DNA of 64,000 bases, taken from contig OZ024741.1 in NCBI GenBank assembly GCA_964016885.1, positions 73,408,001 to 73,472,000 on the forward strand. The letters run 5' to 3'. Position numbers and translations under genes: made by a program. The stretch comes from Eledone cirrhosa. Taxonomy: Eukaryota. The notes under the pieces were generated by a model. That model ran no database searches, had not been told where the DNA came from, and saw only the letters and a list, made by a program, of their open reading frames with translations. Each line of letters begins with the position of its first letter. Positions within the stretch are counted from its first letter, which is position 1. Positions 5,727 to 61,425 of the stretch are shown here, in pieces.

Positions 5727-5974
5727 CCCTGACAAAGGCTAGGCGTCCTTCACTCCCAGTGGTTTATCTGCGCGATACATGTGTAATACATATTTACACT
5801 CTCATGAGTTCTTCCACCCTTTGTCAGGTTTTGTTTTTTGTCCTCCAGGGTGCCAATATCACCCTCCTCACCAAATAAACTTGGTGGGGTTGCCGGTTTA
5901 GTCGCCGACGACTCGACCATGCGACAGGTTGTACTGGGTTACATGTTACCAGTAGCACTCAAGAATGACCCGAG
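5727..5974 (-). mobile_element. Partial copy (5' part) of RTE-derived non-autonomous element
   Basis: Reverse complement matches the 22288 and 43825 copies (GCTACTGGTAACATGTAACCCAGTACAACCTGT...GGCGACTAAACCGGCAACC). Abuts (ATAC)n. Confidence 0.75.
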
Positions 5975-6060
5975 ATACATACATACATACATACATACAT
6001 ACATACATACATACATACATACATACATACATACATACATACATACATACATACATACAT

Positions 6061-6732: not shown

Positions 6733-6747
6733 CATACATACATATAT

Positions 6748-8112
6748 ATGTGATAACAAGTGCAGACTCTGCAGAATTAACATCGAAGATGTCACCCATG
6801 TCATAATCAGCTGTCCAAAGATGTCATCGCGGTACTATCTAACTATGAGGCATGATGTAGTGACCAAAACACTGTACAATGCAATCCGTTAGATGAGAAC
6901 ATATCCTATAATGGTATCTATAATAAGGAACGCGTAACCAGGGAATACTACACCCGATTAAGAAAGATCTGGTCATCGGAACTCCCTGCGCAAAACAATA
7001 CAGAGGCTCACAATGTGTTTGCTGTGCCTGTCCTAACACCAACTTTTGGAATACTCAATTGGACGATAGACGAAATCTGAGCGATTGATGTAAGAACTCG
7101 AAAAATACTAAACAACACCGGAAACTTCCACATCAACATTTACATAGACTGCCTTAACTTGAAACGTAAGCAGGGAGGCAGAGGCCTAACATCAGTCCAG
7201 ACAGTATTTGAATGTCGCATCATATCCCTCCGACAACATCTACGAACCTCAAAGCGTAGGAGCCCGTCTCTCGAGCAAGTCTATCTGTATGAAACAGAAT
7301 TAACATCGAAGATGTCACCCATGTCATAAGCAGCTGTCCAAAGATGTCATCGCGGTATTATCTACCTATGAGGCATGATGTAGTGACCAAAACACTGTAC
7401 AATGCAATCCGTAGAAAAGATAGCCCCGATAATAAACGCATTAAAAGCTACAGCAATGTGGAAGACATACATATACATAATATGAAAGAGTACTGGTGGA
7501 ATTTTCTAATAAAAACACCAATAAAATGCAAGCATAACAGACCAGATATTATGATATGGAACAGGGAAAAGAAGGCATGCACAGTAGTGGAAGTTAGCTG
7601 TCCAGCACATGCCAATATAATATCGAAGATTAATGAAAAGAAGAATATTTATGCAGAACTGATGAGAAATCTGAAGATACTCCATCCTGATTATACCTTC
7701 AGATTTATGCCTGTGATTATTGGGGCACTGGGATATGTTAGTAACTGCCTCAATACAAATCTTGAGAAGCTAGGCTTCACAGGAACAGAAAGAACACAAC
7801 TAGTTAGGAAATTACAAGCACAATCCATTAATGGAACAGTAAAAATATGTAAACATTCCAAACATTTTGCATCTAATAACTGCATATACACATGTACAGA
7901 TACTAAGCATATACACATGCACACATACAACTCAAAACATACACATCCACACATACAATAACATCCATATCTACCCATGCATGCATGCAGACATGTATAC
8001 ATATCTACCTAGTTGATGCTGTGTAAATTCCAATGAGAGAGTCTTGTGTCTATGTTAGAAACCGACTCTCTCTATTGGCAAAAATTTATGAAATTATAAA
8101 ACCAGAAAAACT
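6748..8112 (+). mobile_element. R4/Dong-like family A copy, rearranged and decayed
   Basis: CCHC knuckle remnant (CRLCRINIEDVTHVI..C), post-RT fragments, RLE ORF 7344-7961, and the same 3' UTR as the 6061 copy. Ends in (CATA)n. Confidence 0.85.
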
Positions 8113-9031: not shown

Positions 9032-9139
9032 CCATCCAGGGTTCAGTCGGGGCTAACCACAGTAAGTAAGGTACTCAATACATAGCAGAGTATAATTGTT
9101 TAATATAGAAATTAAAAGATGGTTAAAAAAGTTCCATAT

Positions 9140-9204
9140 ATTTTATTATGCGCATTTCGAAAACATCATCCTGGGACAAAAATTGTGTTCTCATCAGATA
9201 AAAT
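9140..9204 (-). ncRNA. Minimal type I hammerhead ribozyme (pLTR copy)
   Basis: Reverse complement reads ATTTTAT-CTGATGA-gaac...tttc-GAAA-TGCGCA-TA-ATAAAAT. Confidence 0.75.
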
Positions 9205-9817
9205 AAGGTAACATGATATGAGACCTAAAAACACTTGTGAACAAGAAAGTGTCCAGTCAACATATGACAAACGTATAAGAGAAGAGAAAAAAATAGGAAA
9301 AATTAATAAAAAGAAAGAAGACGGAAAAAGGAAAAAGAAATAGAAGAGAGGAAAAAAGAAAGAAAGAAGGAGGAGAGATACATTTTATCGGGAACGCTGT
9401 CAAAACTGAAAAAGCAACTGTGAATAACGGCTAAAAAAATAATAAAAAAATAATAAAAATAAATAAATAAATAAATAAATTGATGAAGTGAATATTCTAA
9501 TATTACAAATATTAGTGGTCTAGAATATAGAAACTGGGTATATTATTTAATATTGAGTTTGAATACTAACATTTGGATTAAGAAGTGTAAAAATGTATTA
9601 TAAAATAAAATAAAATAAAATAAAATAAAAATTAAATTAAAAATAATTATAAAAAGGTGGTTTTTTTAAATAAAATAAAATAAAATAAAATAAAATAAGA
9701 TAGACTAGAATAAAAAATTAAAATAAGAATAGTCTATCTATGTCAAAATTAAAAATTACTATTAAAAATTTATATATGTGGGGTATAGTATTTGATTATT
9801 ATTTTATATCAACAATA

Positions 9818-9933
9818 TCCCGCCGAGGTTAACTTTGCCTTTCATCCTTACGGGGTCGATAAAATAAAGTACCAGTAATGTACTAGTAAATTACTGGCCA
9901 AAAGTAGAAACTGTGCCAAAAGTAGAAACAATT
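9818..9933 (+). mobile_element. 5'-truncated Meta-type SINE nested in the Penelope 3' UTR
   Basis: SINE body flanked by the duplication TTTTATATCAACAA. Confidence 0.8.
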
Positions 9934-11426
9934 GTTTTATATCAACAAGTAAATAAAGGAAATAGAAAGGTTTATAAACGTAGAAAGACATATGACGTCA
10001 TAGATTGTTTACAAAATCTACGAAGGTTTGAACGAAAAAATGATGTCAATAGAGAAAGAAGGTGAAAGGCTTAATAATACAGAGAAAAGGGGATTAATAC
10101 ATTGTAGAATATAATGAAATATGTGAGAAAAAATGTGTGAAAAGATATATGTGTAAAAAATTAACCGTTATTCGTAGAATAAGTTATAGGACATAAGCTG
10201 TATACTTTGTGAAAGGTCTTAAAAGATTTATGAATACAGAGACCAAATAAGTCCGTACGTCTATTTATTAAAGAGTTGAAACTCGAGATAATGGTAAATT
10301 TTTCAGCTAGACATAAATTACAAACCCTAGATATGGAAGCATGGGAGTAAGGTAAAGCGTTGCAAATTTTACGCCAAGAGATTTCGTAATTAATGTTTTT
10401 GTCTTTTAAGGACCAAATAAGTTCTGAAAGTGTGGTGCTGGTCCTTTTAAGTGGATATTTAAATGTAGAAGAATGGTTATAGAGTCTAGCTTTAAAAGAA
10501 GTAGAAGTAGAGCCAATGTAGGTATAGGTATTGGTACTAGTTACCACTTTACATTCGTATATTAGGTTTTTATCGAGACAGAAATTACTAAGAGGACAAT
10601 TAGTTCTAATAGGGCAGTTGCATTTGCGATTAAAATTATTTATCGAGACAGAAATTACTAAGAGGACAATTAGTTCTAATAGGGCAGTTGCATTTACGAT
10701 TAAGATTATTAACAGAGCTATTTACCAATGACCCAGGATTATTTATAATAGGGACTGGAGTGGTGGAATTAGCTAAAGGAGGTGCTAAAGTTTCCTGATT
10801 TACATTACTATTTGAAGCATTCATCAAAGTTACATTTGACGTCGTATTTATACTTGTGTTATTTTGCCTAGAGTTTACATTGAGGTCGGGCCTTATAGTG
10901 TTATTGTTTTGACTCTCATGGTTGGATGCATATGAGTTATTATTTAATATTTTAGAATTATCTCTTGAGATAATTTTTAAAATGTTGGAAGTATTGGAAT
11001 ACGAGAATTTAATGGTATGCTTATTTAAAATCTTGCTATAAATATGTGAAGCGGGGAAGTTGTTATCTAAAGCCCTAAAAAATAATTTAGGGATATTACT
11101 AATAAGTAAAAGAGAGAAGGGAGCGTTATACCAAAGGATATTTTTATATCTAGGTCTCCTCTTTATGTTACTGGTATGCTTATAACTAGCTACATTACTA
11201 TAAGTTCTGCCAAGATTAGTTTCCTTAGTGTATTTAATTTTGTCTGGATATCCAAGCCCTAGATGACGCATTATTATAATAGTTGGCATTAGCATCGAAG
11301 ATATGTTTATTGGAGGATAAATTATGCATCCAACCATATTTTTTCTCTTCTCTTATTTTTTTGTCATATGTTGACTGAACACTTTCTTGTTCACAAGTGT
11401 TTTTAGGCATCTTATCATGTTACCTT

Positions 11427-11493
11427 ATTTTATCTGATGAGAACACAATTTTGTCCCAGGATGATGTTGTTTCCGAAATGCGCATAATAAAAT
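11427..11493 (+). ncRNA. Minimal type I hammerhead ribozyme
   Basis: ATTTTAT / CTGATGA / stem II gaac...ttcc / GAAA TGCGCA TA / ATAAAAT. Stem I is 7 bp and stem III is palindromic (ATGCGCAT). Confidence 0.8.
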
Positions 11494-11616
11494 GTATGGA
11501 ACTTTTTTAACCATCTTTTAATTTCTTCTTTATATATACTCCAGTTCTACCAACTGTCGAGTGCTACTTATCTGATATATGCATAGTTTTATTGTTCTAC
11601 AATATTACTCACCTCC

Positions 11617-17290: not shown

Positions 17291-17556
17291 CTCACATAAC
17301 CCATCTGATACACCAGCGCTGGTAGCAGTTCCCTGTTGTTTTCTTAACTTAATGATAGAAGTTTCCATACAGTTGATAGATGTGCTATAAATAGTAATCA
17401 TGTCTCATTCAAATTATGCTCTCTTTTTTTTCGACCTTTGACTACCGTAGTATGTTTGACATACACCATATCTGAAACAAAATGTGGGATGGTTATGGCT
17501 GAAATTCTTTTCACGATGGGGCTACGGGATCAGAGCTGACCTCCTTCAGTTAAACA

Positions 17557-17746
17557 TAATTGTTTCTACTTTTGACACAAGGCCAGCAATTACCCAATAC
17601 ATTACTGGTACTTTATTTTATCGACCCCGTAAGGATGAAAGGCAAAGTTAACCTTGGCGGGATTTGAACTCAGATCATAAAGGGACGCAACTCTATGCTT
17701 CAAAGAATGGCGTCCGACTCTCTACCAATACTACCAATCCACCGCC
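17557..17746 (-). mobile_element. Meta-type SINE, full length
   Basis: A and B boxes plus body. 12-bp TSD GTTAAACATAAT. Confidence 0.9.
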
Positions 17747-18884: not shown

Positions 18885-20030
18885 TAATAATTGTTTCTAC
18901 TTTAGGCACAAGGCCAGCAATTACTGGTACTTTATTTAAGGATGTCCGATGGGTAAATTGATGACAATTAAATGACTAAATTGAAAATAAAAACAAAATT
19001 AGTTTCACTCTAGCATAGCGGATACGCAAAGGCATTCGTGAGTTTTATATCGAATAATAATTGTTTCTAGTTTTGGCACAAGGCCAGCAATTACCCAGTA
19101 CATTACTGGTACTTTATTTTATCGAACCCCGTAAGGATGAGAGGCAAAGTTAACCTCGACGGGTTTTGAACTCAGACCGTAATAGGACGTAACTATGCTA
19201 AAAAGCATGGCGTCCAACCCTCTACCGATACTGCCAATTCGCCGCCCTTTATATCGAATAATAATTGTTTCTACTTTTGGCACAAGACCAACAATTACCC
19301 AATCCATTACTGGTACTTTATTCTATCGACCCCGTAAGGATGAAAGGCAAAGTTGACCTCGGCAGGATTTGAACTCAGATCATAAAGGGACGTAACTCTA
19401 TGCTTCAAAGCATGGTGTACGACTCTCTACCGATACTGAATGATATTCGATTCGTTTGCAAGCAAACAGCCTCATGTTTTAGACGACTATCGTCATCCTT
19501 TTGTTCTAGCGGTGGCGCTAGAATCGAATATCATTATTATTTAAGGGCGGTGAATTGGCAGCATCGGTAGAGGGTCGGACATGCTTTCCAGCATAGTTAC
19601 GCCCCTTTACGATCTGAGTTCAAATCCGGCCGAGGTTAACTTTGCCTTTCATCCTTACGGGGTCGATAAAATAAAGTACCAGTAATTCACTGGTTTAATT
19701 GCTGGCTTTGTGCCAAAAGTAGAAACAATTATTTAATATAAAAGTATGGTCATCCTTTTGTTCTAGCGCCACCGCTAGAACAAAAGGATGACGATAGCCG
19801 TCTAAAACACATGGCGTAACGAGATTGATTGCTTGCAAACGAATTGAATATTATTACGAATAAAGGGTCGGACACCATGCTTTCCAGCATAGTTACCTCC
19901 CTTTACGGTCTGAGTTCAAATCCCGTCGAGGTTAACATTGCCTTTCATCCTTACGGGGTCGATAAAATAAAGTACCAGTAATGCACTGGGATAATTGCAG
20001 GTCTTGTGCCAAAAGTAGAAAGAATTATTA
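18885..20030. mobile_element. SINE cluster: three minus copies (18885, 19057, 19260) and two plus copies (19545, 19865) interleaved with an inverted-repeat element
   Basis: Recognisable SINE bodies. TTTATATCGAATAATAAT is duplicated around the 19057 copy. 19441-19520 is inverted relative to 19775-19852. Confidence 0.85.
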
Positions 20031-20473
20031 TTCAATATAAAACTCAGGAAGTAAACAACTTCCTTACGTATACTGTGCTGAGAGAGAGATCTTCGCTAAC
20101 AGCCATTGTTGTTTAGCTGGGGGTAAAACTTATTGAAACAACATATGATCAAAAGTATTCAACTAAATGTGTCTTTCCTGTTTTAAGACTGTGAAAATTG
20201 ATTTGAATGAGATTCGGTATCTATTTCTAGAAAGACGAAAGATTTCGTAGGATTTCCACTGTTTATTTGAGACAGGCATAGAAATTGTTGTTTAGCTCCA
20301 AGTAAGCCTTGATTGAGAAGAATCTAATATGTATTAGAGCCATCAATCTCCCATCAGTGTAGCTAGGAATCATTACTCTAGCTTAACACACTAGGAATTC
20401 ATTGGAAGCATATTCAAACGATATTTTTAGCATGTCATATATATGTATATATGTATGTATTTATGTATGTATG

Positions 20474-20985
20474 CAGTGGCGGACTGGCCCGGTTGGCAGG
20501 TTTCCCAATGGCAAGTGGGCACCGAGGGGACCCACGGTAGCATTGCAAGGGCCCACAGTAGCATTGCAGGGCCCACTGTAGTATTATATATATACTGAGT
20601 GAGTGTAAAAGACCAAAGGTCATTATTGAAAGTCTCTAGGGCGGTGAATTGGCAGTATCGGTAGAGGGTCGGGCGCCATGCTTTGCAGCACAGTTACGTC
20701 CCTTTACGGACTGAGTTCAAATCCCGCCGAGGTTAACTTTGCCTTTCATCCTTACGGGGTGGATAAAATAAAGTACCAGTAACACACTGGGATAATTGCT
20801 GGCCTTGCGCCAAAAGTAGAAACAATTATTGAAAGTCTCTAGATTTCGCAAAATACATAATATTTTTTATTGGAGAAGGTAAGATATTTTCCCGCAAAAA
20901 TTTGATTGCGCTGTTTTGTTTCCATTTATGTATTTTTTGGGCCCTCTTCATCTGGCAACCAATATTTTTAGACCTATTCCGCCAC

Positions 20986-32911: not shown

Positions 32912-33672
32912 ACTGCAATTTGTGGAAAGGGGAAAGTCGGTTGAATGGCCCCAGTACTGATACTTTATTTCATCGATCCCGGAAGGATGACAGGCAAAGT
33001 TGACATGGAGAGATTTGATCTCAGAATGTAAGGTGTCTGAATAAATACCACAGAGCATTTCGTGAGACGCTCAAAGTATTCTGCTAATCCAGCGCTTTCA
33101 AACGACAAATAATGGTTTCTGATTTAGGCACAAGGCCAGCAATTTTGGGGGAGAGGAAAGTCGATTGAATCGACCCCAGTGCGAGACTAGTACTTTATTT
33201 CATCGACCCCCGTAAGGATGAAAGGCAAAGGTAACCTCGGCTGGATTTGAACTCAGAACATAAAGGGCCGTAACTCTATGTCACGAAGCATGGTGCCAAT
33301 GCCCTATTATTATTTGTCAGTGGATTGGCAGTATCGGTAGAGGGTCGGGTGCCATGCTTTGACGCATAGAGTTACCTCCCTTTATGATCTGAGTTCAAAT
33401 CCCGCCGAGGTTAACTTTGCCTTTCATCCTTACGGGGTCGATAAAATAAAGTACCAGTAATGCACTGGGATAATTGCTGGCCTTGTGCCAAAAGTAGAAA
33501 CAATTATTTGTCAAACGACAAATAATGTTTTCTGATTTAGACACAAGGCCAACAATCTTTTATGGGGTAAAGTCGATTAAAACGACCCCAGTGCATAACT
33601 GGTGCTTTATCTTATCGACCCCCGTAATGATGAAATGTAAAGCTAATCTCGGCGAGATTTGAACTCAGAACG
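32912..33672. mobile_element. Cluster of four Meta-type SINEs (three minus, one plus at 33318-33508)
   Basis: SINE bodies and B boxes are visible. TCAAACGACAAATAATG is duplicated at ~33098 and ~33511. Confidence 0.85.
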
Positions 33673-36969: not shown

Positions 36970-38846
36970 TTTTCTCTTTCTCTTAATTTCGAGTATATTT
37001 TTTTGACCGGCCACCTTCCTGGTGGCAAGGTTGTAAAAGAAAAGAAATTGTCATCCCTTGAATCGCAAGAATGTTTTGCATATTTTGAAGGTGCCAGCTA
37101 TCGCAGCCATTTGTAGACTATGAATTAGGGAGCTGCGCTTTTTGTCCGCAAATCCAAGTTCGGTCATACTTTGGTCCAAGCGGGTTGGTATATAACCCGT
37201 AACACCAATAATGATGGGTATGAAGCTAAAGGTGTATCTTGGATACTGGATGTGTAAGCTCCTCATCAATGGTCCGTAGATGTCCTCCTTCTCCTGTATT
37301 TTTCTGACAACGTTTACATCAAGTGGGCAGCTGATCTCCACAACAGAACACGTTTTCAATGTGTGGTCCCAAACTACAATATCAGGCCGGTTGTGCTTTA
37401 ATTTGGTGGCAGTTTTTATTTTCAGGTTCCACCAGTATTCCTTAGTGCCATCTGTCTCAATATATTCTTCCTCGTTTGTTGTTAATTTTGTTTTCCGAAG
37501 TGCGTTCCAGATAGTTCTAGCTATCCCATCGTGTCTCATGGGGAGGTAGTAGCGAGATGACATTCTTTCGCAGCTGGCAACAATGTGGCTTACATCCTCG
37601 ATCTTTGTTTTACATAGCCTACATTTATTGTCAGCTGCTGGCCCTCCTCTTTTGTGCAGCAGATATTTGGTAGGGAGTTCTTGTTCCTGTATTGCATAGA
37701 GATATCCCTCAAGGTGTGATGTCATAAACTTGTCGGAACTCCATGCCAGGCTTTTTGAGTGGTTTATCCCCTCTATGGTCTGTGTTTTACGCCTCAAGTA
37801 TCCATGCACAACTTTCTCTGTAAATTGGTCAATTTTTTTTTCTTGTTTGAACATTGAATAGGATCTTCCGATTTCTCTGGGTGAGAGATTTATATCAGGC
37901 TTTATTCCATATCTCTCCTCCAGATCAGTCGCTATTCTAATGATATTTCTTTTTTCATGCTCATAAACCTGAGCAAGATGGTCGCCAACCTTTTTCCTCT
38001 GTTGAAGGTGTTGCTTCAGTGTTACTATCCGGGTCTCATATGTTGTTAATATTGATTTTAGACCCCGGCCACCTTCCTTGCGTGAGAAGTATAGCCTATC
38101 CACATCACCATTGATGTTAAAGTTCCCAGTAACACTGAGAAGTTTTCGAGTTCTAACATCCATCTCACTTAGTTCTTGCAATGACCAGTTCAGTAGGCCA
38201 AATGTTGGCGTTAGAATTGGCACAGCATAGGTATTGTGGGCAATGTATTTGTTGTATGCTGACAGTTCTGATGACCATATTTTTTTTACTCTTCTGAGGT
38301 ATTCAGTTCTGGTTCTCTCCTTATTTATGGGTCCATCATATCTGACATTCTCATCCTGTCCAAGATATCTGTAGTTGTCACCTGACTGCAGAGGTTGTAT
38401 TGTCAGGCCGTTCATATCTAGATTTCTAGAGGAGGGCACAGCTCTTCCACGTTTTACTGCCAAATATGCACACTTGGACTCACCAAATTTCATTTTGATG
38501 TCGGTTGAAAATTGTGTAATGAGGTCCAATTGTTTCTTGATGTCATTGATATTTGGCCCATACAACTTCAGGTCATCAACAAAGAAAAGATGGGAGATAC
38601 TTCTGGGCCCACTTCTTTGTCCACCTTGTTTCCTGAGTAGGTAAGATAGTGGATTCAGTGAGAGAACGAAGAGTAGTACTGACAAGCTATCACCCTGAAA
38701 GATGCCCTTCTGGTAATGTATCCTATCAGTCTTAACCTGCTCCTTCTCACCTCTAAGGATCAAATTGGTGTACCAGTTCTTGGTCAGGCGTTCAACAGCA
38801 GCTACTAATGGTTGTGGGACTTTAGCTAACTGTAAAGCCTTAATAA
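36970..38846 (-). mobile_element. R4/Dong-like retrotransposon, family B, 5'-truncated, ORF uninterrupted
   Basis: Flanked on both sides by (CATA)n on the sense strand. Short 3' UTR. Confidence 0.92.
37051..38846 (-). CDS. Reverse transcriptase, CCHC zinc knuckle and restriction-like endonuclease (partial, no native start)
   Basis: GIFQGDSLS, HLFFVDDLKLY, YRYLG, GGRGL, CRLC..EDVSHIVASC, RHD, RPDIVV..VVEISCP..K. The frame stays open upstream of 38763 to the microsatellite. Confidence 0.92.
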
Positions 38847-38922
38847 TGTATGTATGTATGTATGTATGTATGTATGTATGTATGTATGTATGTATGTATG
38901 TATGTATGTATGTATGTATGTA

Positions 38923-39116
38923 TAGTTATCCATGCTAGGTACTCTTTATTCTTCCATTGGGGATTCAATCTGAACGAAAGAATCCGATCCAATGTCAATA
39001 TGGTGTCGTGCAGTCTATTTGTACTAGATGATTTAAATAATATAAGCACTAAATCCAACTGCGGTGTATATAGAGATGACGGATTAGCTATTAAAATACA
39101 TACTGCTAGGCATTAA
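38923..39116 (+). pseudogene. Penelope/Naiad-type RT fragment
   Basis: IHARYSLFF...LFVLDDL...CGVYRDDGLAI parallels ILSARKTLI...GLYRDDM in the intact ORF. Confidence 0.7.
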
Positions 39117-40760: not shown

Positions 40761-41189
40761 GTAATGACAATAAAGTCAGTAAGCTGTTATTGTTAGTCCT
40801 ATGTCATCGGGCTACGATCATCCTGTCATTGTATAGGAATATAGGACAACTTTATACTATAATGAGGCCTTTTGTTTTTCTTATGTAGGACTGCGTTCTC
40901 TAATATATCCGTCCCTGTTATTTGAGTCAGACTGAGCTGCCATCTACTATCTTTCACATGTCGAATGACTACAAGGCTTTGGTTGACCCGTACTATTGCA
41001 GAAGAAACGCGATTTAGTTAGCTACACAGTGTAATTGTACGTCGTTGTGATCGTTGTGAAGTGGAATCCTTATCCACAGAATCACAGTCAATTTCCATAT
41101 ATTTAACACTACTTTAAAGAATATTTTGAACGGTATATGTGTATATATATATATATATATTTGTGTGTGTGTACGTAAATATGTATGTA

Positions 41190-42645
41190 TGTTGTGGTTT
41201 CATAATTTTATATTTTACCAATAGAGAGTCGGTTTCTAACATAGACACAAGTCTCTTTCATTGGAATTTAGACAACATCAACTAGGTAGATAAGTATGCA
41301 TGCGTGCATATGTGTGCAGGTATGAATATTATTATATATGTGGATGTGGACGTGTTGAGTTATATGCGTGCATGTGCATATGTTTTGTATCTGTACATGT
41401 GTACATATTTTTACAGTTCCATTAATTGATTCCTAACTAGTTGGGTATTTCTGATTCTGTTAAACCCATTTTTTCAAGATTTGTACTGAGGCAGTTACTA
41501 ACATATACCAGAGCCCCAATAATCACACGTATAAATCTGAAGGTATAGTCAAGGTGGAGTATCTGCAGATTCCTCATTAGTTCTGCATAGATGTTCTCCT
41601 TTTCGCAAATCTATACTATTATATTGACATCTGCTGGGCAGCTAACTTCCAATACTGTGCATGCCTTATTTTCCCAGTCCCATATCATTATATCTGTCTG
41701 TTATGCTTGCATTTTGGGAGGTTTTGACCGGAACATTCCACCAGTACTCTTTCATATTATGTATGTCTTTTAATATGTTTATTGTTTGGGCTATCTTTTC
41801 TACGGATTGCATTGTATAGTGTTTTGGCTACTACATTATGACTCATATGTAAATAGTACCATGATGACATCTTTGGACAGTTGCTTATGACACGGGTGAC
41901 ATCTTCGATGTTAATTCTGCAATGTCTGCGTTTGTTGTCACATCTAGGTGTTTTGCCTGCATCCCAATCTCTTTTGTGAATCAAGTATTTTGTATTGATT
42001 TCCAGTTCTTGGAATGCAAAAGCATATCCTTCAAAGTGACAGCTAATATAGCAGCTGTCAGTCCAAGACAGACTGCTTTACTTATCTATATTACTCTCAC
42101 TCTGGAGCTTCCTGGCAACATATCCATGTATGATGTTTTTCAGATAAGCATGCAGTTTTTCATCCATTGATTCACTACGGTATTACTGAACAATTTCCCT
42201 GGGTGTGAGTTTTTTTTATTATCATGCAGGGAGTATATTTCAAGGAGTTCCTTCCCAACTCTCATCATCTTATCTGTCTCATGTAGACAGACTTGCTCAA
42301 TAGATAGGCTCCTATGCTTGGTGGTTCGTAGATGTTGTCGGAGGAGTACTGTCTGGACTGATGTTAAGCCTCTGCTTCCTTGTTTACGTTTCAAGTAGAG
42401 GTGGTCTATGTCACTGTTGATGTGGAAGTTCCCGGCGTTGTTTTTCGGGTTTTGTCTATCGTCCAATCGAGTATTCCAAACGTTGGTGTTAGGATATGCA
42501 CATCAAACACATCATGATCCACTGTTTTATTGTGCGCAGATATTTCAGATGACCATATTTTTCTTAATCGGGTGTAATATTCTCAGGTTGCGCGTTCTCT
42601 GTTACAGAAACCATCATAGGATATATTCTCATCTATCCCTAGGTA
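41190..42645 (-). mobile_element. Decayed R4/Dong-like family A copy
   Basis: GNFHINSDIDHLYLKRKQGSRGL, CRINIEDVTRVISNC and RLE remnants. 3' UTR matches 6505-6732. TATG-type repeats on both sides. Confidence 0.85.
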
Positions 42646-47992: not shown

Positions 47993-48533
47993 ATAAGTAT
48001 GTATACGTACATACATATATGTATACAAACGTACAGTAGTATGTATATTACCGCTGAGTAGCCAATTTGCATATCGAGTGGGTTAATCGGCCGGGTGCAC
48101 CGAAAACGATAAACAGGAAAAAATGAAACGAAATTTCATTTCCCACTCTTAGTACGGCTGTTACTTAAATATTAGCCGTTAATATGCATAAGGTAAGTAT
48201 ATATGTTCTACAATCTGGCAGGAAGGTATACGTTGCTGACGATAGCTAATACGCTTGAAACTAGTACAGCGTTCTTTTGTCAGTGTTGAACAACGAGCAA
48301 CGATGGTTGCTGGACACTACGGCTTAATACGGGATGTTTGTTTACAAACACACGAGCATTATAATAAATGTTCGGTGAATCCATACGTACATATATATAT
48401 ATGTGTGCATGTATGTATATATATATACATACTACTGTACGTCTGTATACATATATGTATGTATGTGTACATACTTATATTTAAGTAACAGCCGTACTAA
48501 GAGTGGGAAATGAAATTTCGTTTATTTTTTTCC

Positions 48534-48584
<51 letters not shown>

Positions 48585-48635
48585 GTGTGGGTGTGTGTGT
48601 GTGTATGTATATGTATATGTGTGTGTATATATATA

Positions 48636-48686
<51 letters not shown>

Positions 48687-48860
48687 TATACATACACACA
48701 CACACCCACACACACCATATATATATATAAACGGAAAAAAATAAACGAAATTTCATTTCCCACTCTTAGTACGGCTGTTACTTAAATATAAGTATGTACA
48801 CGTACATACATATATGTATACAGACGTACAGTAGTATGTATATATATATACATACATGCA
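47993..48860. mobile_element. Cluster of rearranged copies of the ~425-nt HHR-bearing non-coding family
   Basis: Segments match 58445-58930 in both orientations. Terminal motif GAAATTTCATTTCCCACTCTTAGTACGGC occurs three times. Confidence 0.78.
48231..48271 (+). ncRNA. Type I hammerhead ribozyme
   Basis: CGTTG-CTGACGA-tAGCtaatacGCTt-GAAA-CTAG-TA-CAGCG, with a GUA cleavage triplet and palindromic ACTAGT stem III. Confidence 0.82.
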
Positions 48861-48862
48861 CT

Positions 48863-49072: not shown

Positions 49073-49142
<70 letters not shown>

Positions 49143-49148
<6 letters not shown>

Positions 49149-49905
49149 GAGATAAGCGGAGCAAGTAAGATTCAAACAATATTTTAAAATAAATTAAAAA
49201 TTAAAAAATATAATTTAAATATTTACCTATTCCATTTGCTTTTACCGACGGTTTCACCTTACAAAAGACTGGAAACCCTAGGGACTTCCAATCGAAATGT
49301 TCGGATCATCAGAGAGCAATTTTCCTTACCTAGGACAAAATCCCGGGAACGGCATAATATATTGCCATCTGCCAGCTAGCACAGGATCGAATGAGGCCGT
49401 AAACTTGACCTGTGCATGAACCAGCCTTTAGTAGAAGCGAAAGTAAACATAGACGTGTTGTCTATCACGCCACTAAAAATAGCAGCTAACTAAAACAACG
49501 GATTTGTTCTCTACATAACGGAGATTATAAAAAGAGGTTAATATCCCCACAGGTACTAAGTACCCTGGAAATATATAGGGTGTCTATGAATCAGTGGTTG
49601 TTCTATGGTATTAATTTGACATACCAAAGGAAAATACTTTCTGATGATCCGAATATTTCCATTGGAAGTCCCTAGGGATCTCCAATCTCTTGTGAGGTGA
49701 AACCGTCGGTAAAAGCAAATGGAATAGGTAAATATTTAAATTACATTTTTCAATTTATTAAAAAAAAATTGTTTGAATCTTACTTGCTCCGCTTATCTCA
49801 ATTTTATAGTTCTGGTATGTCACATTAATACCATAGAACCACCACTGTATCATAGACACCCTATATATTTCCAGGGGTACTTAGTACCTGTGGGGATATT
49901 AACCT

Positions 49906-49908
<3 letters not shown>
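49143..49908. mobile_element. Non-coding HHR-bearing element (unit ~495 nt) present as an inverted pair in (TA)n
   Basis: Minus copy 49143-49626 and plus copy 49627-49908. Each has CTGATGA-tcc...ggt-GAAA-CCGTCGG-TA-AAAG(CAA). Confidence 0.75.
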
Positions 49909-49983
<75 letters not shown>

Positions 49984-49987
<4 letters not shown>

Positions 49988-50826: not shown

Positions 50827-50893
<67 letters not shown>

Positions 50894-51116
50894 GATATTA
50901 AATAAATGGAAACTATATTTATAAAACCATATTTATTTCATTATATATATTTCAGGGATATCATATTAACAATATGCTATGCCTTCCTCAGACAAAATAC
51001 AATATAAACAGTTTTATAGATAAATAGATTTGACATACCGTACAACATCGACTTGTATTTGAAAAGTTGAATTGGCAGTGAAAAAATTGTAAACAGAAAT
51101 AAAACTGTTTATATTG

Positions 51117-51182
51117 TATTTTGTCTGAGGAAGGCATAGCATATTGTTAATATGATATCCCTGAAATATATATAATGAAATA
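51117..51182 (+). ncRNA. Minimal type I hammerhead ribozyme in pLTR (copies at 54977-55042 on plus and ~50933-50998 on minus)
   Basis: TATTTTGT-CTGAGGA-AGG...CCT-GAAA-TATATA-TA-ATGAAATA. Stem I is 8 bp with two G-U pairs. Confidence 0.8.
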
Positions 51183-51360
51183 AATATGGTTTTATAAATA
51201 TAGTTTCCATTTATTTAATATCGTAAATATACTCCAAATACTTGTCGAGTGCTTTTATATCAGTTATTAATATTTACTAGTTGTAACCCAACAATTTAAA
51301 TATAACTTTCCATGTATCTTGCTCCAATACTGTTGAGCGCTTTATATTATAACTGAAAAA

Positions 51361-53583
51361 ATGGAATTCTTTAAGATTACTTCCTCTTTAAAAGACATAC
51401 CTCTACCTAGAAACAAAGACTTTATAAAACAATTAATAGATAAATCTGACTCTTTTATAAGGAGAATCAGGTGGCGAGCATTCCACTTTGATAAATCTAA
51501 TATAAATGAAAATGTCTCGGACTTAAACAAAGTTTTCAAATCTAAAAGAAATCCACCCCCTAACAAACTTTTATCTGACTTTGAAAACGATATAATTTCT
51601 ATCATACAAGGGGTCAAATTCAAGAGAAACTTCAAAGGCCAGGAATATCTGAAAGCCATTAAGGATAATATTGAGAGCTTAGAGAAAACTGAGAAGATCT
51701 TGGTGAAATCTGACAAGACCAACAACCTCTATGGAGTGCAGAAAGACATGTATAATGGCCTCATACTGAAGGAACTGAGGAAAAAGTACAAGGTAGCAGA
51801 TAAGGCCGAGCTTGAGAAAATGAATGTCAAAGCATCTTGTATAATGCACGAGTTGGAAATTGAGAACAGAACACAACCTTTCGTGCCCAGGAAACCGAAG
51901 ATCAATATGAAAGATCACAAGAGGTATTTTGAAAATGACTTGCCTGTTAGATTGATCGCACCATCAAAATCGGACCTGGGCAAATTAAGCAAAAACATTC
52001 TTGACAGGGTGATACAGCAAATTAAGAACTTGGATTGTTTATCTAACCTGAGCTTGTGGAAGGGAACTGGAGAGGTTGTTGAGTGGTTTAAGCAAATTAA
52101 ATATAACAATAATAATAAGTTTATTCAACTTGATATTGCTAACTATTATTCTTCTATTACCCCTAATCTACTAAATAAGGCACTAAATTACGCATTCAAA
52201 CATACAGACCTAACTAGCAATGAAATGCATATTATATTATCGGCTAGGAAAACATTGATAGAATTTAATGACCAACTATGGACCAGAGCAGATAGAGATA
52301 GCAATTTTGACATTACTATGGGATCATCCGACTCAGCTCAGGTAACTGACCTTGTTGGCTTATTTTTAATCAATTCGCTACATAGGAAAATACCTGGTAC
52401 TACCGGAGGTTTATATAGAGATGACATGCTTTTACTTATTGATAATAATAACTCTGAACTAAATAGAAAATGTAAACAAATTACACAATTTTTTAATTAC
52501 TTTAATCTTAAAATAGAAATTGAGAACAACCATAGAATAGTCAATTTCCTAGATATAACATTAAATCTCAACACATGTCTTCACTATCCTTTTCACAAGT
52601 TGAATGAAAACTTAAACTATGTCAGCTTTAACTCTAACCACCCCAGATCTGTCAAAAACACTATACTAAACTCTGTTCAAAAACGTATCTCTAGAATCTC
52701 GTCTAATAGAAAGATTTTCGACGAAAAAGCCCAGTACTACAATGAAGCGTTAGCTAGAGCAGGATATACTGATAAGATTATGTACATAGATAATGATAGA
52801 CAAACTAAACAAAATAACAACTATTTTAATTACGGCAACAACCTTAACAACTATAATAGAAAGCATTACAATAATTCCAAGGGCCAAAAAAGAAATAGAA
52901 CTAGGAACATAATTTGGTTTGCCCCCCCCCCCCCCCCTTTCTCACTAAACATTAAAACCCACATCGCTAAACTATTTTTTAAAGCTCTTGATAATCGCTT
53001 CCCTAGAACACATAGGTATCACTCAATTTTCAATAGACATACTATAAAATTAACCTACTCATCCACCAAAAATTTAGCACAAAATATTAATAGAATAAAT
53101 AATAGGAACTTAAAACCTAGTGATAATAGCATAAATAATATACAAGTTAACAAATGTAACTGTAGAGATAGATCTAAATGTCCGTTAAATAACAACTGCT
53201 TAGTTAAAAATATAGTATACAATTGTAATGTTAAAACTGATTCTAATTCTTTTAACTACGTCGGTTCCACATCGACGGAATTTAAACTTCGCTATAATAA
53301 CCACAAGAATTCTTTCACAGATCCAAGCAAAAAATCTTCAACGGCACTATCAGGCGTACTCTGGCAACTTAAGCTAGATAACGTTAGATATTCGACGGCT
53401 TGGAATATAGTCTCAAGAGGGATTCCTTTTAATTCATCCTCTGAGACATGTGACCTCTGCGCAGAGGAGATATTCTTTATACTAAAATCTAAAAATTCCC
53501 TTAATCTACGGACAAATTTATTCAGTTGCTGCAAACATAGATTAAACTCAACTTTTAAATATAAATTTAAATTTAAAATGTAG
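51361..53583 (+). CDS. Penelope-type reverse transcriptase plus GIY-YIG endonuclease (740 aa)
   Basis: KSDKT, PVRLI, QLDIANYYSSI, ITMGSSDSAQVTDL, GLYRDD, VNFLDITL, SNHP, CNCRDRSKCPLNNNC, IVY..NYVGST..FKLRYNNH, CDLCAEE, CKHR. Confidence 0.95.
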   Translation: MEFFKITSSLKDIPLPRNKDFIKQLIDKSDSFIRRIRWRAFHFDKSNINENVSDLNKVFKSKRNPPPNKLLSDFENDIISIIQGVKFKRNFKGQEYLKAIKDNIESLEKTEKILVKSDKTNNLYGVQKDMYNGLILKELRKKYKVADKAELEKMNVKASCIMHELEIENRTQPFVPRKPKINMKDHKRYFENDLPVRLIAPSKSDLGKLSKNILDRVIQQIKNLDCLSNLSLWKGTGEVVEWFKQIKYNNNNKFIQLDIANYYSSITPNLLNKALNYAFKHTDLTSNEMHIILSARKTLIEFNDQLWTRADRDSNFDITMGSSDSAQVTDLVGLFLINSLHRKIPGTTGGLYRDDMLLLIDNNNSELNRKCKQITQFFNYFNLKIEIENNHRIVNFLDITLNLNTCLHYPFHKLNENLNYVSFNSNHPRSVKNTILNSVQKRISRISSNRKIFDEKAQYYNEALARAGYTDKIMYIDNDRQTKQNNNYFNYGNNLNNYNRKHYNNSKGQKRNRTRNIIWFAPPPPPFSLNIKTHIAKLFFKALDNRFPRTHRYHSIFNRHTIKLTYSSTKNLAQNINRINNRNLKPSDNSINNIQVNKCNCRDRSKCPLNNNCLVKNIVYNCNVKTDSNSFNYVGSTSTEFKLRYNNHKNSFTDPSKKSSTALSGVLWQLKLDNVRYSTAWNIVSRGIPFNSSSETCDLCAEEIFFILKSKNSLNLRTNLFSCCKHRLNSTFKYKFKFKM

Positions 53584-55328
53584 TATATTTAGTTTGATTT
53601 ATAATTATTTGGGAAACTAGCCGATAAATCTTTCGATTTCTTCTTTTTATTCTTCTTTTTATTTTTATTTTTATTTTTATTTTTATTTTTATTTTTATTT
53701 TTATTTTTATTTTTATTTTTATTTAAACATTCTTTATTTAAACATTCTTCATGGAAAATTAAACTACCCTAAAAGTTGATGCTCCAAATATTTCGAATAA
53801 ACGTTACACTAGATAAACTTCTATATTAAATATAAGAACACATGTAGACCAAATGGGCATCCTAAAGTTTTTGAAATGATTTTTGCTAGATGCGATTTGA
53901 TAAATAATTTTTAGCTTTATCTGTTTTCGACTCTGATGCTTATAATGAACTTGGCAATATATTGTCAATTAATTTTGAAGGGTTGATCTTTGTGGTTTAT
54001 TTTTATTATTGTAGTATTTTCTAATATTTTTATTTTTAATATGTAATATTTTTAATATGTAATATTTTTTCGTAATATTTTTTAGTTTTCTATTTTATTA
54101 TTATTTATTTATTATTATTATTATTATTATTGTTGTTTTTTGGTTTTTGTTTCTGATATATTTTTTATTAATATATTGAAATCTGCTCTCTATTTCTGCT
54201 TGATAGATAATCTTGTAGAGTAAAGACAAGAATAGTAGTAATATAGACTCTATATATATATGTGTATATATATACACATATGTGTATACTTAAATTTTTA
54301 TAGCACAATGAGAATGTTTTCCGTGTGAACTTAGGGTTTGCAGAGTTGATCATGTAAATTCACATCGATGTTTGTAGTTATCATATAAACATATGATTTT
54401 TTTAAAACTAAACATAAGATCATTACTTTTCACACATTATGGATACGTGTCTCATTCAGGAATACTGATATTTTCAATATAGTGCCTGGTTTTTATACAT
54501 ATTAATACTTCTACATTAAAACATAGGGTTTTTATGCCTCGCCTATGTCTGGTTACTTTTCATTTTTCTCTCTATATAACAGCTGGTTTCTCTCCTAACC
54601 ACATATATCTCCCTTACATTAATACTAGAGCTAAATAAATAAATAAATAAATAAATGTATCATTGATACGTTTACTCAACGGATGTCCAACTACATATTT
54701 TTCTATATATATATCTATCTCTATCTATTTCCTCTCTCTATATATATCTCTCTCTGTTTCTTTACATGAAGTTCTTCTCTTTATCTATCTTTCCATCTCT
54801 CTATTTTGTTCCATGCATTTCTTCTTTTTCTTCTTTTTCTTCGTTTTCTGTCTTTCTTTTCTTTTTTCTCTCTTTCTTTCTGTTTACAATTTTTTCACTG
54901 CCAATTCAACTTTTCAAATACAAGTCGATGTTGTACGGTATGTCAAATCTATTTATCTATAAAACTGTTTATATTGTATTTTGTCTGAGGAAGGCATAGC
55001 ATATTGTTAATATGATATCCCTGAAATATATATAATGAAATAAATATGGTTTTATAAATATAGTTTCCATTTATTTAATATCGTAAATATACTCCAAATA
55101 CTTGTCGAGTGCTTTTATATCAGTTATTAATATTTACTAGTTGTAACCCAACAATTTAAATATAACTTTCCATATATATATATATATATATATGTATGTA
55201 TATGTATATGTATATGTATATACATATATTGCGAAGTACATCTACCTATCTTATTATTGATAAAGATTATTTTATCTGTGAGTATTACTATGGTAATACC
55301 TCAGTTAGTATTAAATCTGAAGTGAAAA

Positions 55329-56443: not shown

Positions 56444-56866
56444 GTGTGGGGGGGGTGTATAAAGTTATAAAAGTGAATGGATATGTATCCTTTGATGTAT
56501 ATGCGAGTATTTCTATCTACTGAATCACCTACTGACTGAGTGATAGTATAATTGACTGATTTCATGTAAGTTTAATACACAAGCAGCATCAACGTAGCAC
56601 ATTGTTTAATAAAACTCGCTGTTTCAATTACTGTTGCAGTCCATCCGACGCTTTCCACATACATCCTAATTAAATATTACTCACAAGAAACAACGCAATG
56701 GGATCGAACCCGGAACAACCTCATGATTGTTGACCAGACTCTTTACCGCTCGACCATATATATATATATATATACACACATACATACACTCACACACACA
56801 CACACCCACGCACGCACATACATATATATATATATGTACATTATTTATATATATATATATATATAA

Positions 56867-57057
56867 GGGCGGGGGATTGGTAGTATCGGTAGAGGATCGG
56901 ACGCCATGCTTTTCAGCACAGTTACGTCCCTTTACGGACTGAGTTTAAATCCCGCCGAGGTTAACTTTGCTTTTCATCCTTACGGGGTCGATAAAATAAA
57001 GTACCAGTAATACACTGGGATAATTGCTGGCCTTGTGCCAAAAGTAGAAACAATTAT
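56867..57057 (+). mobile_element. Meta-type SINE, full length
   Basis: Close match to 20640-20824. Confidence 0.9.
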
Positions 57058-57287
57058 TTATATATATATAGATGTCAACATAAATGGACCTGTTATTTTT
57101 ATCTAAAGACTTTTTTTCCAATTCCAACCCGCCCGTTCCTTCAATCTATCTTATTTCTCACTCTTTCTTCTAATGAAAGACTAGACTCCGAAACATCAAG
57201 ACCCCTCTTCCTGCTATTTCAGGCATTAACCTAATATATTCCTTTCATATACTGTACCGTTTGTGTTGTTATTTCTGTTTACCTTTT

Positions 57288-58399: not shown

Positions 58400-58444
<45 letters not shown>

Positions 58445-58448
<4 letters not shown>

Positions 58449-58930
58449 GGAATAGAATGAAACGAAATTTCATTTCTCAGTCTTAGTACGGCACTTACTT
58501 AAATGTAAGTATGTATGTATACGTACATACATATATGTATACAGACGTACAGTAGTATGTATATATATACATACATGCACACATAGATATATGCACGTAT
58601 CGGTTTACCGAACATTTATTATAATGTTGTAAACAAACAAACAGCCCGAATTACGCCGTACAGTGTTTAGGCAACCACGTCACCTTTTTTGTTCAACACT
58701 GACACAGGTACGATGTACTAGTTTCAAGCTTATTAGCTATCCTCAGCATCGTATACCTTCCTGCCAGATGGTTGAACGTCTGAAAGTATATACTTTCCTT
58801 ATGCATATTAACGGCTGAGCAGCCTAATTTGCATATTGAGTGAGTTCAGTAGGCCGGGCGCACCGAAACGATAAATGGAATAGAATGAAACGAAATTTAT
58901 TTCTCACTCTTAGTACGGCACTTACTTATA
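58445..58930 (-). mobile_element. Retrozyme-like non-coding element: ~425-nt unit with ~55-nt terminal direct repeat
   Basis: ATAAATGGAATAGAATGAAACGAAATTT...CTTAGTACGGCACTTACTTA occurs at both ends. Internal HHR. (TA)n on both sides. Confidence 0.8.
58709..58753 (-). ncRNA. Type I hammerhead ribozyme
   Basis: Reverse complement reads TACGATG-CTGAGGA-tAGCtaataaGCTt-GAAA-CTAG-TA-CATCGTA, with a perfect 7-bp stem I. Confidence 0.85.
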
Positions 58931-58933
58931 AAG

Positions 58934-59031
<98 letters not shown>

Positions 59032-59725: not shown

Positions 59726-60159
59726 GTGTGTGTTTCTATTTGTGTATGTGTGTGACCGTATGTATTTGACGACTGAAAGAAAAAAGTACAAAAAGTTTTA
59801 TTTTTAATAAAAAAAAAAAAAGACTGGCAAAAGAGACACTGAAAGACACTGAACTTCAAGATCTTCAGCCGTTGAGACTTAGACAGTCTGCACCCTACCA
59901 ACGGTACTGCTGGTCCAACCGTGTCACAGCGTCTGACAAACAAGACGTGGAGTAAAAGACAAGCAAAGCATTAGCTTACAGCAATTAAGTCATAACAGGT
60001 ACACATGGGATTTATGTGACAACTATAGCAAATATAGTCTCGTGAGACTGATAAAAGGGAGGTAAAAAAGAAGAGGAAAGTAAGAAATCTTGTTAAAAAA
60101 TGTAATCCATTGACATTATTGTGGGGAGAAAAATGAACACTTTCGTCAAAGATTAATAA

Positions 60160-60349
60160 TAATTGTTTCTACTTTTGGCACAAGGCCAGCAATTATTCTA
60201 GTGTATTACTGGTACTTTATTTTATCGACCCCGTAAGGATGAAAGGCAAAGTTAACCTTCGTGGGATTTGAACTCAGACCATAAAGGGCCGTAACTCTAT
60301 GCTGCAAGGCATGGTGTCTGACCCTCTATCGATACTGCCAATCCACCGT
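60160..60349 (-). mobile_element. Meta-type SINE, full length
   Basis: TSD CGTCAAAGATTAATAATAAT. Confidence 0.9.
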
Positions 60350-61425
60350 CAAAGATTAATAATAATAAAATTAGAATAATTGACAAACAGAAGACAAACA
60401 GAAGACAAACAGAAGACGAACGAAAAAAATATTTTTGAAATACACCCTCTAAGAATGATTATTTATTTTCTGCTGCACGAGCTGACATAAAAAATTGCGG
60501 GCTTCTCAATCAATTTGTGCGAAAACGTAAGCCAGATTGAGAGCAGACGAGGTCAGATGCGTCTGTGATTTTTTAATCGTTTATAACTTTAATCTCGACT
60601 CTTATCACCCTAATCTCCATTGTCTTCCTTTCTTTCTTTCTTCTTTACTTGTCACTTCTAAGTGTCAACACACTCCTCCACCAATCATCTCTATGTCTAA
60701 TCTACCTGTCACCCACCACACAATTTTAATTTTCTTTTTACCGACCACCGGCCACTGATTTCTGTCCCTAGGAGTATTTTTACCGAACTTACATGCTATT
60801 GTCATTGACGTCATTCGGCTGTTTTATCATGTTTCTTGCGTTGAAGTTTTCAAATTATTCCTATGAATTTCAAATTCCCTTACGCTTCGTCTCGATGTTT
60901 ATATATACATACATACATATATATGTATGCAAATATGCATACTGATATGATATATACATGTGAATGACACATCGAGTATTATAAACAATATATGCACGCA
61001 CGCACACACATACTCCCTCACAAAGCATTATACACGCTGTACATTCACTGAAACCATCCATAATTCAGTGTTCTTATTGGAAATTTAATAAACTGGTCGA
61101 TATAATGATGGCTTGGTTCCGTCTGCACCGTTTGTCATTAACTAAAGAGCATAATAACAGCTGCACACTGATGTTGCATGTGTGTATGAATATGTGTGTA
61201 CTGATATGCGTCTATATATGTTTATATATGCCTGTCTATGCATATGTGTGTATGGCAGTGTGTATGCATATATATGCATGTGAGAGTGTGTTTGTCTTTA
61301 TGTCAGTGAGTGTATAGCTTTAAACGTTCAAATGCATACACATGTTTATCTCATTCTCTCTCATATAAATGCATGCATATCCATATATATATATCTATCT
61401 ATATATATATATATATTTGTATATA

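What the first reader, a model, noticed from the sequence alone, without database searches (positions are those of the whole stretch)
49143..49908. Second HHR-bearing non-coding family (~495-nt unit) showing an end-to-start junction
Seen: on the minus strand (49626 to 49143) the element's terminal ~95 nt run directly into ~200 nt of body, then an HHR with an unusually long stem II insertion (~55 nt) and an ACC-GUC-GGU-A stem III. A plus copy (49627-49908) repeats the HHR and the terminus. Inference: the permuted order implies a head-to-tail or circular template of about 495 nt, and the inverted arrangement is the same signature as the Penelope insertions nearby.
Basis: partly seen in the sequence, partly recalled or inferred. 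Interest (0 to 1): 0.75.

Follow-up and report, generated by a model that had tools for sequence, protein, structure and literature searches.

The report
Penelope-copied hammerhead retrozyme, two-armed insertion
This is one old copy of a protein-free, roughly 487-base repeat with a predicted self-cutting RNA motif, found at hundreds of places in this animal genome; its copies end at two fixed sites, so they were likely pasted in by a Penelope-type jumping-gene enzyme, possibly from a circular RNA, making it a new member of a known kind of element.

Summary
Observation confirmed. The locus is a head-to-head, two-armed insertion of a non-coding unit (491 nt here, family median 487) carrying a type I hammerhead. 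The family has 381 exact hammerhead-motif matches (control 0). In 137 sites, units repeat head-to-tail with no spacer, up to 2.5 units. 169 of 196 arms end in (TA)n-type ends at two fixed sites 106 nt apart, and 35 of 37 classifiable two-armed insertions use one site per arm. This is the known Penelope 'tail' footprint; two Hydra-clade Penelope families here show it too. The hammerhead core is conserved and stem II covaries (U·U versus G-C, C-G versus U-A). Arms cross the predicted cut site 209 times without extra stops, which fits a circle or an uncut multimer. One copy is fused to a Hydra Penelope at the predicted cut site (single, ambiguous event). Cleavage, expression and circles are untested. 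The end-to-start junction is general Penelope architecture, not proof of a circle. Verdict: new family of animal non-LTR retrozymes / non-autonomous Penelope elements. The scan reported this class in other families of this genome at least eight times; a sequence look-up did not find this family.

The parts
49143..49626 (-). Arm 1: one nearly full unit (family positions 1-481), 5' end at the centre of the insertion, 3' end at fixed site A in (TA)n
   Evidence: 17 differences from the family majority in 435 scored positions
49627..49908 (+). Arm 2: 5'-truncated, family positions ~302->485 then 1->~102, crossing the end-to-start junction; 3' end at fixed site B in (TA)n
   Evidence: 8 differences from the majority in 239 scored positions
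49237..49318 (-). Type I hammerhead motif, copy 1: stem I, CUGAUGA at 49312, 50-nt stem II closed by U.U, GAAA at 49255, palindromic stem III, predicted cut after GUA at 49243
   Evidence: activity not tested
49635..49717 (+). Type I hammerhead motif, copy 2: CUGAUGA at 49641, 51-nt stem II, GAAA at 49699, predicted cut after 49711
   Evidence: activity not tested
49803..49908 (+). Penelope-type 'tail': the ~106 nt between fixed 3' end A and fixed 3' end B, two predicted hairpins; likely the enzyme's start region
   Evidence: role inferred from PMC11167929
49525..49626 (-). Second copy of the tail segment, here running on into the body (the end-to-start junction)
   Evidence: 49526-49626 vs 49914-49813, 94% identical
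49114..49144 (.). (TA)n target tract at the 3' end of arm 1
49909..49984 (.). (TA)n target tract at the 3' end of arm 2

Best explanation
A non-coding ~487-nt repeat with a predicted self-cleaving hammerhead, present in hundreds of dispersed copies, that was likely inserted by the reverse transcriptase-endonuclease of a Hydra-clade Penelope-like element. Mechanism: the enzyme cuts a (TA)n tract (inferred from the flanks and from Hydra's known target); each of the two DNA ends primes reverse transcription inside the RNA, one at site A and one at site B, 106 nt apart (the two fixed ends and their one-per-arm use are shown; priming is inferred from PMC11167929); both cDNAs run 3'->5' through the hammerhead site and the end-to-start junction, stop at variable points and are joined head to head (shown as DNA structure). 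The template was continuous across the cut site: most likely a monomer circle made by dimeric hammerhead cleavage and ligation (about even odds), otherwise an uncut multimer or template jumping. This copy is an old, diverged insertion.
For: 3' ends: 110 at A, 59 at B, 27 elsewhere, of 196 arms at 137 sites; in the first 108 sites, 108 of 117 TA-flanked 3' ends lay in the 480-489 and 90-109 bins and 4 more at 470-479. 48 head-to-head sites: 35 A+B, 1 A+A, 1 B+B, 11 with one end elsewhere (binomial 35 of 37, p=5e-9); position-ordered subsample of 23 sites: 8 A+B, 1 A+A, 1 other. 5' ends are spread over the unit. Two autonomous Hydra-type families in the genome have the same two-end tail, 89 and 65 nt; their proteins show RWR, DKT and CxCX5C motifs listed for Hydra, which inserts in (TA)n. 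Units in one insertion share the subfamily haplotype: discordance at 38 segregating sites 65/759 (tandem) and 62/762 (between arms) against 41% between loci. 209 passes over the predicted cut site, with 4 stops within 3 nt against 3.7 expected. Core positions 2211/2245 conserved (98.5%) against 96.0% at other non-segregating sites; the free N7 position varies (U125/A43); stem II pairs: C-G 79 / U-A 67, and U.U 136 / G-C 16 at 10.1-11.1. Stem III is palindromic: intermolecular duplex -13.3 kcal/mol, hairpin -0.6. Circular fold -139.7 against -103.3 +/- 5.5 for 40 shuffles. One locus (L050/L220) joins an arm to the body of a Hydra element within 1 nt of the predicted cut site, while its other arm ends at site B.
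Against: No DNA homology between the unit and either Hydra family beyond short motifs (blastn word 7, E<=1, 63 loci), so the helper is not identified by descent. No excess of arm ends at the cut site: of 12 genome-wide matches to a pattern for broken continuation after GUA, 10 continue as the unit, 1 is the chimera and 1 ends in an A run and (TA)n; by my rough estimate under 1 is expected by chance, so 2 is not significant. The chimera has a 3-nt microhomology and could be a later deletion or a nested insertion. The main subfamily lacks G10.1-C11.1 and has a C.A mismatch in stem I in 87 of the scored copies (U-A in 64); the monomer's best fold is a non-hammerhead rod (-22.6 against -13.0 kcal/mol). 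Rfam finds no hammerhead here. PMC11167929 found hammerhead cleavage dispensable for insertion in vitro, and 10.64898/2026.07.22.740005 found cleavage in only 1 of 9 predicted retrozyme dimers. The within-insertion concordance does not tell a circle from a homogeneous linear array.
Confidence: 0.75

Rival explanations
1. Same Penelope-driven insertion, but from linear uncut multimeric transcripts (or RT jumping between linear RNAs); the hammerhead is weak or acts at another step and no circle is involved.
For: PMC11167929: uncut RNA is the dominant template in vitro and no reads end at the cut site. No excess of 5' or 3' ends at the cut site. U.U-closed stem II and an inactive monomer fold. 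Autonomous Penelope elements make the same partial tandems.
Against: No long source array seen: longest arm 1221 aligned nt, 3 of 196 arms over two units, and no run of three same-strand motifs at unit spacing among the first 100 of 381 listed matches (281 not seen). 5' truncation would shorten arrays each round unless something regenerates them. No consistent upstream/downstream allele bias as expected from a mixed linear source. Core and stem covariation point to selection on the ribozyme.
Confidence: 0.4
2. The copies are pLTR remnants of an autonomous Penelope family whose ORF-bearing copies I did not sample.
For: Hammerhead of Penelope type, sharing the U.U-closed UCC..GGU stem II base with a Hydra family; retrozyme-pLTR homology is reported in Xenopus.
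Against: The tail always cycles into the 210-nt body and back to the hammerhead; Penelope ORFs near copies are separated by (TA)n or are the one cut-site chimera. Longest sense stop-to-stop frame in the unit is 45 codons.
Confidence: 0.07
3. A satellite or DNA-level repeat spread by unequal crossing-over, rolling-circle DNA or inverted duplication, with the hammerhead a passive relic.
For: Tandem and inverted copies; satellite-type expansion is proposed in 10.64898/2026.07.22.740005; a 3.9-kb tandem duplication carries one fragment.
Against: Dispersed copies with strand-specific fixed 3' ends, variable 5' ends and the A+B rule are not produced by DNA recombination.
Confidence: 0.03

Closest known systems
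Animal non-LTR retrozymes (Cervera and de la Pena 2020, PMC7229834; Li, Clavereau and Pollet 2026, 10.64898/2026.07.22.740005)
   Same: Non-coding head-to-tail unit, one type I hammerhead per unit, GC under 45% (36.7%), strongly self-paired predicted fold, palindromic short helix III suited to dimer cleavage, co-occurs with Penelope elements.
   Different: Unit 487 nt, above the 170-400 nt of the 2020 paper but inside the 51-972 nt of the 2026 preprint; mostly 1-2.5 units, not long arrays; 50-nt stem II; expression, cleavage and circles untested; two fixed ends and two-armed structure were not described for retrozymes in the parts of these papers that I read.
Penelope-like elements, Hydra clade (Craig et al. 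2021, PMC8557442) and the PAc mechanism (Frangieh et al. 2024, PMC11167929)
   Same: 5' truncation, partial tandems, inverted 5'-truncated arm, a tail between two RT start sites, (TA)n target, hammerhead upstream of the tail.
   Different: No ORF; tail 106 nt against 30-40 nt in the papers (65 and 89 nt in the two local Hydra families); no extended DNA homology to the two Hydra families tested; in vitro PAc showed no difference in start site between strands, whereas here the two arms almost always use different sites.
Penelope minimal hammerheads (Cervera and de la Pena 2014, PMC4209133) and natural U10.1-U11.1 hammerheads (Perreault et al. 2011, PMC3088659)
   Same: Type I, palindromic helix III, larger helix II; U.U at the base of stem II is a described, tolerated variant.
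   Different: Helix II region is 50 nt with an apical hairpin; the conserved G10.1-C11.1 pair is present only in a diverged subfamily (16 copies at 12 sites).

Membership tests
Animal non-LTR retrozyme | Type I hammerhead motif in each unit | tested here: met
   136 of 168 copies covering the core have all 12 core positions intact; found by motif scan, not by Rfam
Animal non-LTR retrozyme | No protein coding | tested here: met
   longest stop-to-stop frame 45 codons sense, 63 antisense
Animal non-LTR retrozyme | Head-to-tail tandem units of fixed length, no LTR | tested here: met
   median spacing 487 nt, n=59; 81 of 196 arms over one unit, 3 over two; some arms hold two hammerheads in tandem
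Animal non-LTR retrozyme | Small, low-GC, highly self-paired monomer | tested here: met
   GC 36.7%; predicted circular fold z=-6.6 against 40 shuffles; size above the 2020 range, within the 2026 range
Animal non-LTR retrozyme | Self-cleavage of the RNA | not testable with these tools
   only indirect: covariation and one chimera at the cut site
Animal non-LTR retrozyme | Expressed as circular RNA | not testable with these tools
Non-autonomous Penelope-like element | Two fixed 3' ends bounding a tail | tested here: met
   169 of 196 arms end at A or B, 106 nt apart
Non-autonomous Penelope-like element | 5' truncation, partial tandems, inverted 5' arm | tested here: met
   48 of 137 sites are head-to-head
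Non-autonomous Penelope-like element | (TA)n target as for the Hydra clade | tested here: met
   117 of 151 3' ends in the first 108 sites are followed by (TA)n; Hydra target from PMC8557442 section 11
Non-autonomous Penelope-like element | Sequence homology to the pLTR of an autonomous partner | tested here: inconclusive
   none beyond short motifs in 63 loci of two Hydra families and related hammerhead loci; other Penelope families of the genome were not tested
Canonical type I hammerhead | G10.1-C11.1 pair closing stem II | tested here: not met
   U.U in 136 copies, G-C in 16; U.U is a described natural variant (PMC3088659)
Canonical type I hammerhead | Stable helix III as a monomer, loop 1-loop 2 tertiary contact | tested here: inconclusive
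   helix III marginal as hairpin, strong as dimer duplex; tertiary contact not tested

The most novel reading that the evidence does not exclude
A Hydra-clade Penelope enzyme dimer loads on one hammerhead-cut, ligated 487-nt RNA circle and primes from both ends of a (TA)n break, one end at each tail site, copying round the circle; the L050 chimera records that enzyme jumping from its own RNA onto the freshly cut 3' end of the retrozyme, naming the helper family and showing in-vivo cleavage by a U.U-closed hammerhead with a 50-nt stem II.
Probability: 0.25. Interest if true: 0.7.

Novelty: new member of a known kind. Interest (0 to 1): 0.42.

Why it matters
Penelope mobilisation of animal retrozymes and a circular template are proposed in the papers read but not shown there. 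This family gives genomic support for the first step (two fixed ends, one per arm, in 35 of 37 insertions) and a candidate helper family, so an in-vitro test can be set up directly. The one-site-per-arm rule also refines the two-start-site model of Penelope reverse transcription. Interest is limited because the class is known, this family is old and of modest copy number, and the scan has already described younger, longer examples in the same genome.

Tried and rejected
Rfam: whole-window scan was swamped by microsatellite matches (150 of 328 rows seen) and the local scan gave no hammerhead, only three sub-threshold matches taken as chance. The repeat finder was swamped by microsatellites. ARAGORN: no tRNA in 49220-49910. 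Pfam: no family for the nearby Penelope ORF; it was assigned by motifs instead. A-to-I editing: no A>G excess over T>C among rare variants (131/12769 against 186/17425, p=0.78). An apparent one-way allele bias between tandem units at two stem II sites vanished after consistent realignment and was an alignment artefact. The 493-nt unit held a 2-nt duplication from my join; the correct value is 491, so site A reads 487 in those calls and 481 in the majority numbering. Four motif matches spaced 3.9 kb apart were checked as a possible autonomous partner: a tandem duplication with a 101-nt fragment and no Penelope ORF match. L059 (copy next to a Penelope ORF) is separated from it by (TA)n and an inverted arm: a neighbour, not a pLTR. 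The young Hydra family in this window shares only GGTATGTCAAAT with the unit and is younger, so it is not favoured as helper. Rows dropped before counts: 150 loci reduced to 108 sites; 10 of 39 further loci dropped as duplicates or the tandem duplication; the AT-rich tract (majority 408-442) excluded from divergence counts.

Full report
Setting. The window is G000:C2:73408001-73472000 in a 3.0-Gb genome rich in (TA)n tracts. An earlier scan note calls a related element 'cephalopod'; I did not test the organism.

Observation. The finding is in the sequence as described. The minus arm (49626 to about 49143) reads tail, body, hammerhead, AT-rich segment, then (TA)n. The plus arm (49627 to about 49908) reads hammerhead, AT-rich segment, tail, then (TA)n. 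The arms meet head to head at 49626/49627. Hammerhead cores start at 49312(-) and 49641(+), stem II is 50 and 51 nt, and the predicted cuts follow GUA at 49243 and 49711. The unit rebuilt from the two arms is 491 nt. The arms differ from the family majority at 17 of 435 and 8 of 239 positions, so this is an old insertion.

Family. DNA searches gave 2,186-2,429 first-look candidates for the longer or tail-containing queries, which are not copy numbers. An 18-nt hammerhead motif has 381 exact matches against 0 for the control; 99 of 159 sampled copies carry it exactly, giving roughly 600 hammerhead-bearing copies (the sample leans to copies like this one, so this is a floor). I mapped 196 arms at 137 distinct sites. 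Most sites were chosen by similarity to my queries; 23 came from a position-ordered list. Units follow each other with no spacer at a median spacing of 487 nt (59 measurements). 81 arms exceed one unit and 3 exceed two; the longest is about 2.5 units. The unit is 36.7% GC, has no open frame over 63 codons, and folds far better than shuffles as a circle (-139.7 against -103.3 +/- 5.5 kcal/mol, 40 shuffles). Median nearest-neighbour identity between sites is 95.6%, maximum 99.0%.

Ends. 110 arms end at site A, 59 at site B and 27 elsewhere. Both sites read TTTTATA and merge into (TA)n; they are 106 nt apart. 5' ends are spread over the unit. Of 48 head-to-head sites, 35 have one A and one B end, 1 has A+A, 1 has B+B, and 11 have one end elsewhere (p=5e-9 for 35 of 37); the position-ordered subsample gives 8 A+B of 10. 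The locus in question is an A+B insertion. PMC8557442 (passages and section 11 read) describes partial tandems, an inverted 5'-truncated copy and a 30-40-bp tail as Penelope traits and (TA)n as the Hydra target. PMC11167929 (parts 1-2 of 4 read) shows in vitro that a Penelope protein cuts and extends both strands of AT-rich DNA and starts reverse transcription at two internal RNA sites that bound the tail. Two Hydra-type families in this genome show the same two ends, 89 and 65 nt apart: the intact element at 50885-55177 (740-aa ORF, at least 60 copies at 96-100% identity) and a second family, 'PLE-B'. Mobilisation by a Penelope-type enzyme is therefore well supported by inference.

Hammerhead. 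The 12 core positions are 98.5% conserved (2211 of 2245) against 96.0% at other non-segregating sites; the core is A-rich, so this margin alone is weak. More telling are the inherited variants: N7, the free position, is U or A (125/43); the third stem II pair is C-G or U-A (79/67); the closing pair is U.U in 136 copies and G-C in 16 copies at 12 sites of a diverged subfamily. These are few independent events on the family tree, not many. U10.1-U11.1 is a described natural variant (PMC3088659, passages), and short-stem hammerheads with the same U.U-closed UCC..GGU base have 4,821 exact matches in this genome (control 0), among them PLE-B. Stem III is palindromic and is predicted to pair between two molecules (-13.3 kcal/mol) far better than as a hairpin (-0.6); the monomer's best fold is a non-catalytic rod. 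This fits dimer-dependent cleavage as described in PMC4209133 (parts 1-2 of 4 read) and PMC7229834 (passages and section 14). Activity is not shown; in 10.64898/2026.07.22.740005 (parts 1-3 of 5 read) only 1 of 9 predicted dimers cleaved.

Circle or linear template. Units within an insertion share the subfamily haplotype (discordance 8.6% tandem, 8.1% between arms, 41% between loci), so each insertion came from one template variant. Sites A and B lie about 96 and 202 nt downstream of the predicted cut, so a cut linear monomer would give short arms; instead arms pass the cut site 209 times with 4 stops against 3.7 expected. The template was thus continuous there. A circle explains this, and explains how longer-than-unit copies persist although no long array was seen (281 of 381 motif matches not listed). 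An uncut multimer or template jumping explains it too, and PMC11167929 favours uncut RNA for PAc. I put the circle at about even odds.

The chimera. At L050/L220 one arm stops at GGTA(A), the predicted cut site, and runs straight into the ORF of PLE-B, whose own 3' end lies in (TA)n; the other arm ends at retrozyme site B. It is the only one of 27 non-standard 3' ends that joins a Penelope ORF. The retrozyme units there differ at 5 of 191 positions and the PLE-B part is 92-96% identical to 14 other copies, so the ages are compatible. A template switch onto a cut RNA end would make this structure, but so would a later deletion or nested insertion using the 3-nt microhomology. A genome-wide pattern found 12 matches: 10 continue as the unit, this one, and one ending in an A run and (TA)n. 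That is no significant excess. PLE-B is the best helper candidate (shared hammerhead type, similar age, one chimera), not a proven one; there is no extended DNA homology.

Known or new. It works like, and by all testable features is, an animal non-LTR retrozyme, i.e. a non-autonomous Penelope-dependent element; cleavage and circular RNA remain untested. Five literature searches listed no paper on this family or on cephalopod retrozymes, within the held library only; PMC2837043 (passages) added nothing. The scan's own notes describe the class, the two-armed form and the circle idea for at least eight other loci of this genome; look-ups by sequence, by place and by words for the chimera found nothing. 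Those notes are unchecked and are not counted as support. Verdict: new member of a known kind, interest 0.42.

Noticed in passing
window 50885-55177: Intact young Hydra-clade Penelope element: 740-aa ORF (51361-53580), 3860-nt unit, hammerheads at 50991(-), 51125(+), 54985(+), inverted arm, two 3' ends 89 nt apart; at least 60 near-identical copies. Pfam gives no match.
   Followed up: partly
L220:4985-7062 (G000:C2:171.303-171.306 Mb): Retrozyme arm fused at the predicted hammerhead cut site to the ORF of a second Hydra family (PLE-B, 845 first-look candidates).
   Followed up: yes
G000 genome-wide; L238-L257: Hammerheads with a U.U-closed short stem II have 4,821 exact matches (control 0), in PLE-B, its relatives and at least one further family with a different stem III.
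   Followed up: partly
   Followed up: no
window 9107-11526: Two-armed Penelope insertion with hammerheads at 9197(-) and 11434(+) and ORF pieces at 10161-11352(-).
   Followed up: no
L160, L162, L167, L171-L174, L178, L179, L183, L184, L187; L038, L051, L056, L059: Diverged subfamilies of this unit: one with canonical G10.1-C11.1, one with a perfect 10-nt stem III palindrome and compensatory changes in the apical hairpin.
   Followed up: partly
G000:C2:144.357-144.370 Mb (L181, L182): 3.9-kb tandem duplication, about 99% identical between copies, carrying a 101-nt fragment of the family.
   Followed up: yes
window 37051-38925(-), 5956-7961(+), 41166-42502(-): Reading frames that look like non-LTR retrotransposon reverse transcriptase with a restriction-like endonuclease end; label recalled, not tested.
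   Followed up: no
window 383-582, 17556-17742, 19056-20041, 20638-20830, 33305-33508, 56860-57066, 60158-60361: A ~200-nt interspersed repeat with many copies at 85-94% identity, SINE-like in size; not examined.
   Followed up: no
window 48040-48861 and 58406-59017: Two related two-armed, (TA)n-anchored elements with a hammerhead-like motif at 48236(+) and 58746(-).
   Followed up: no
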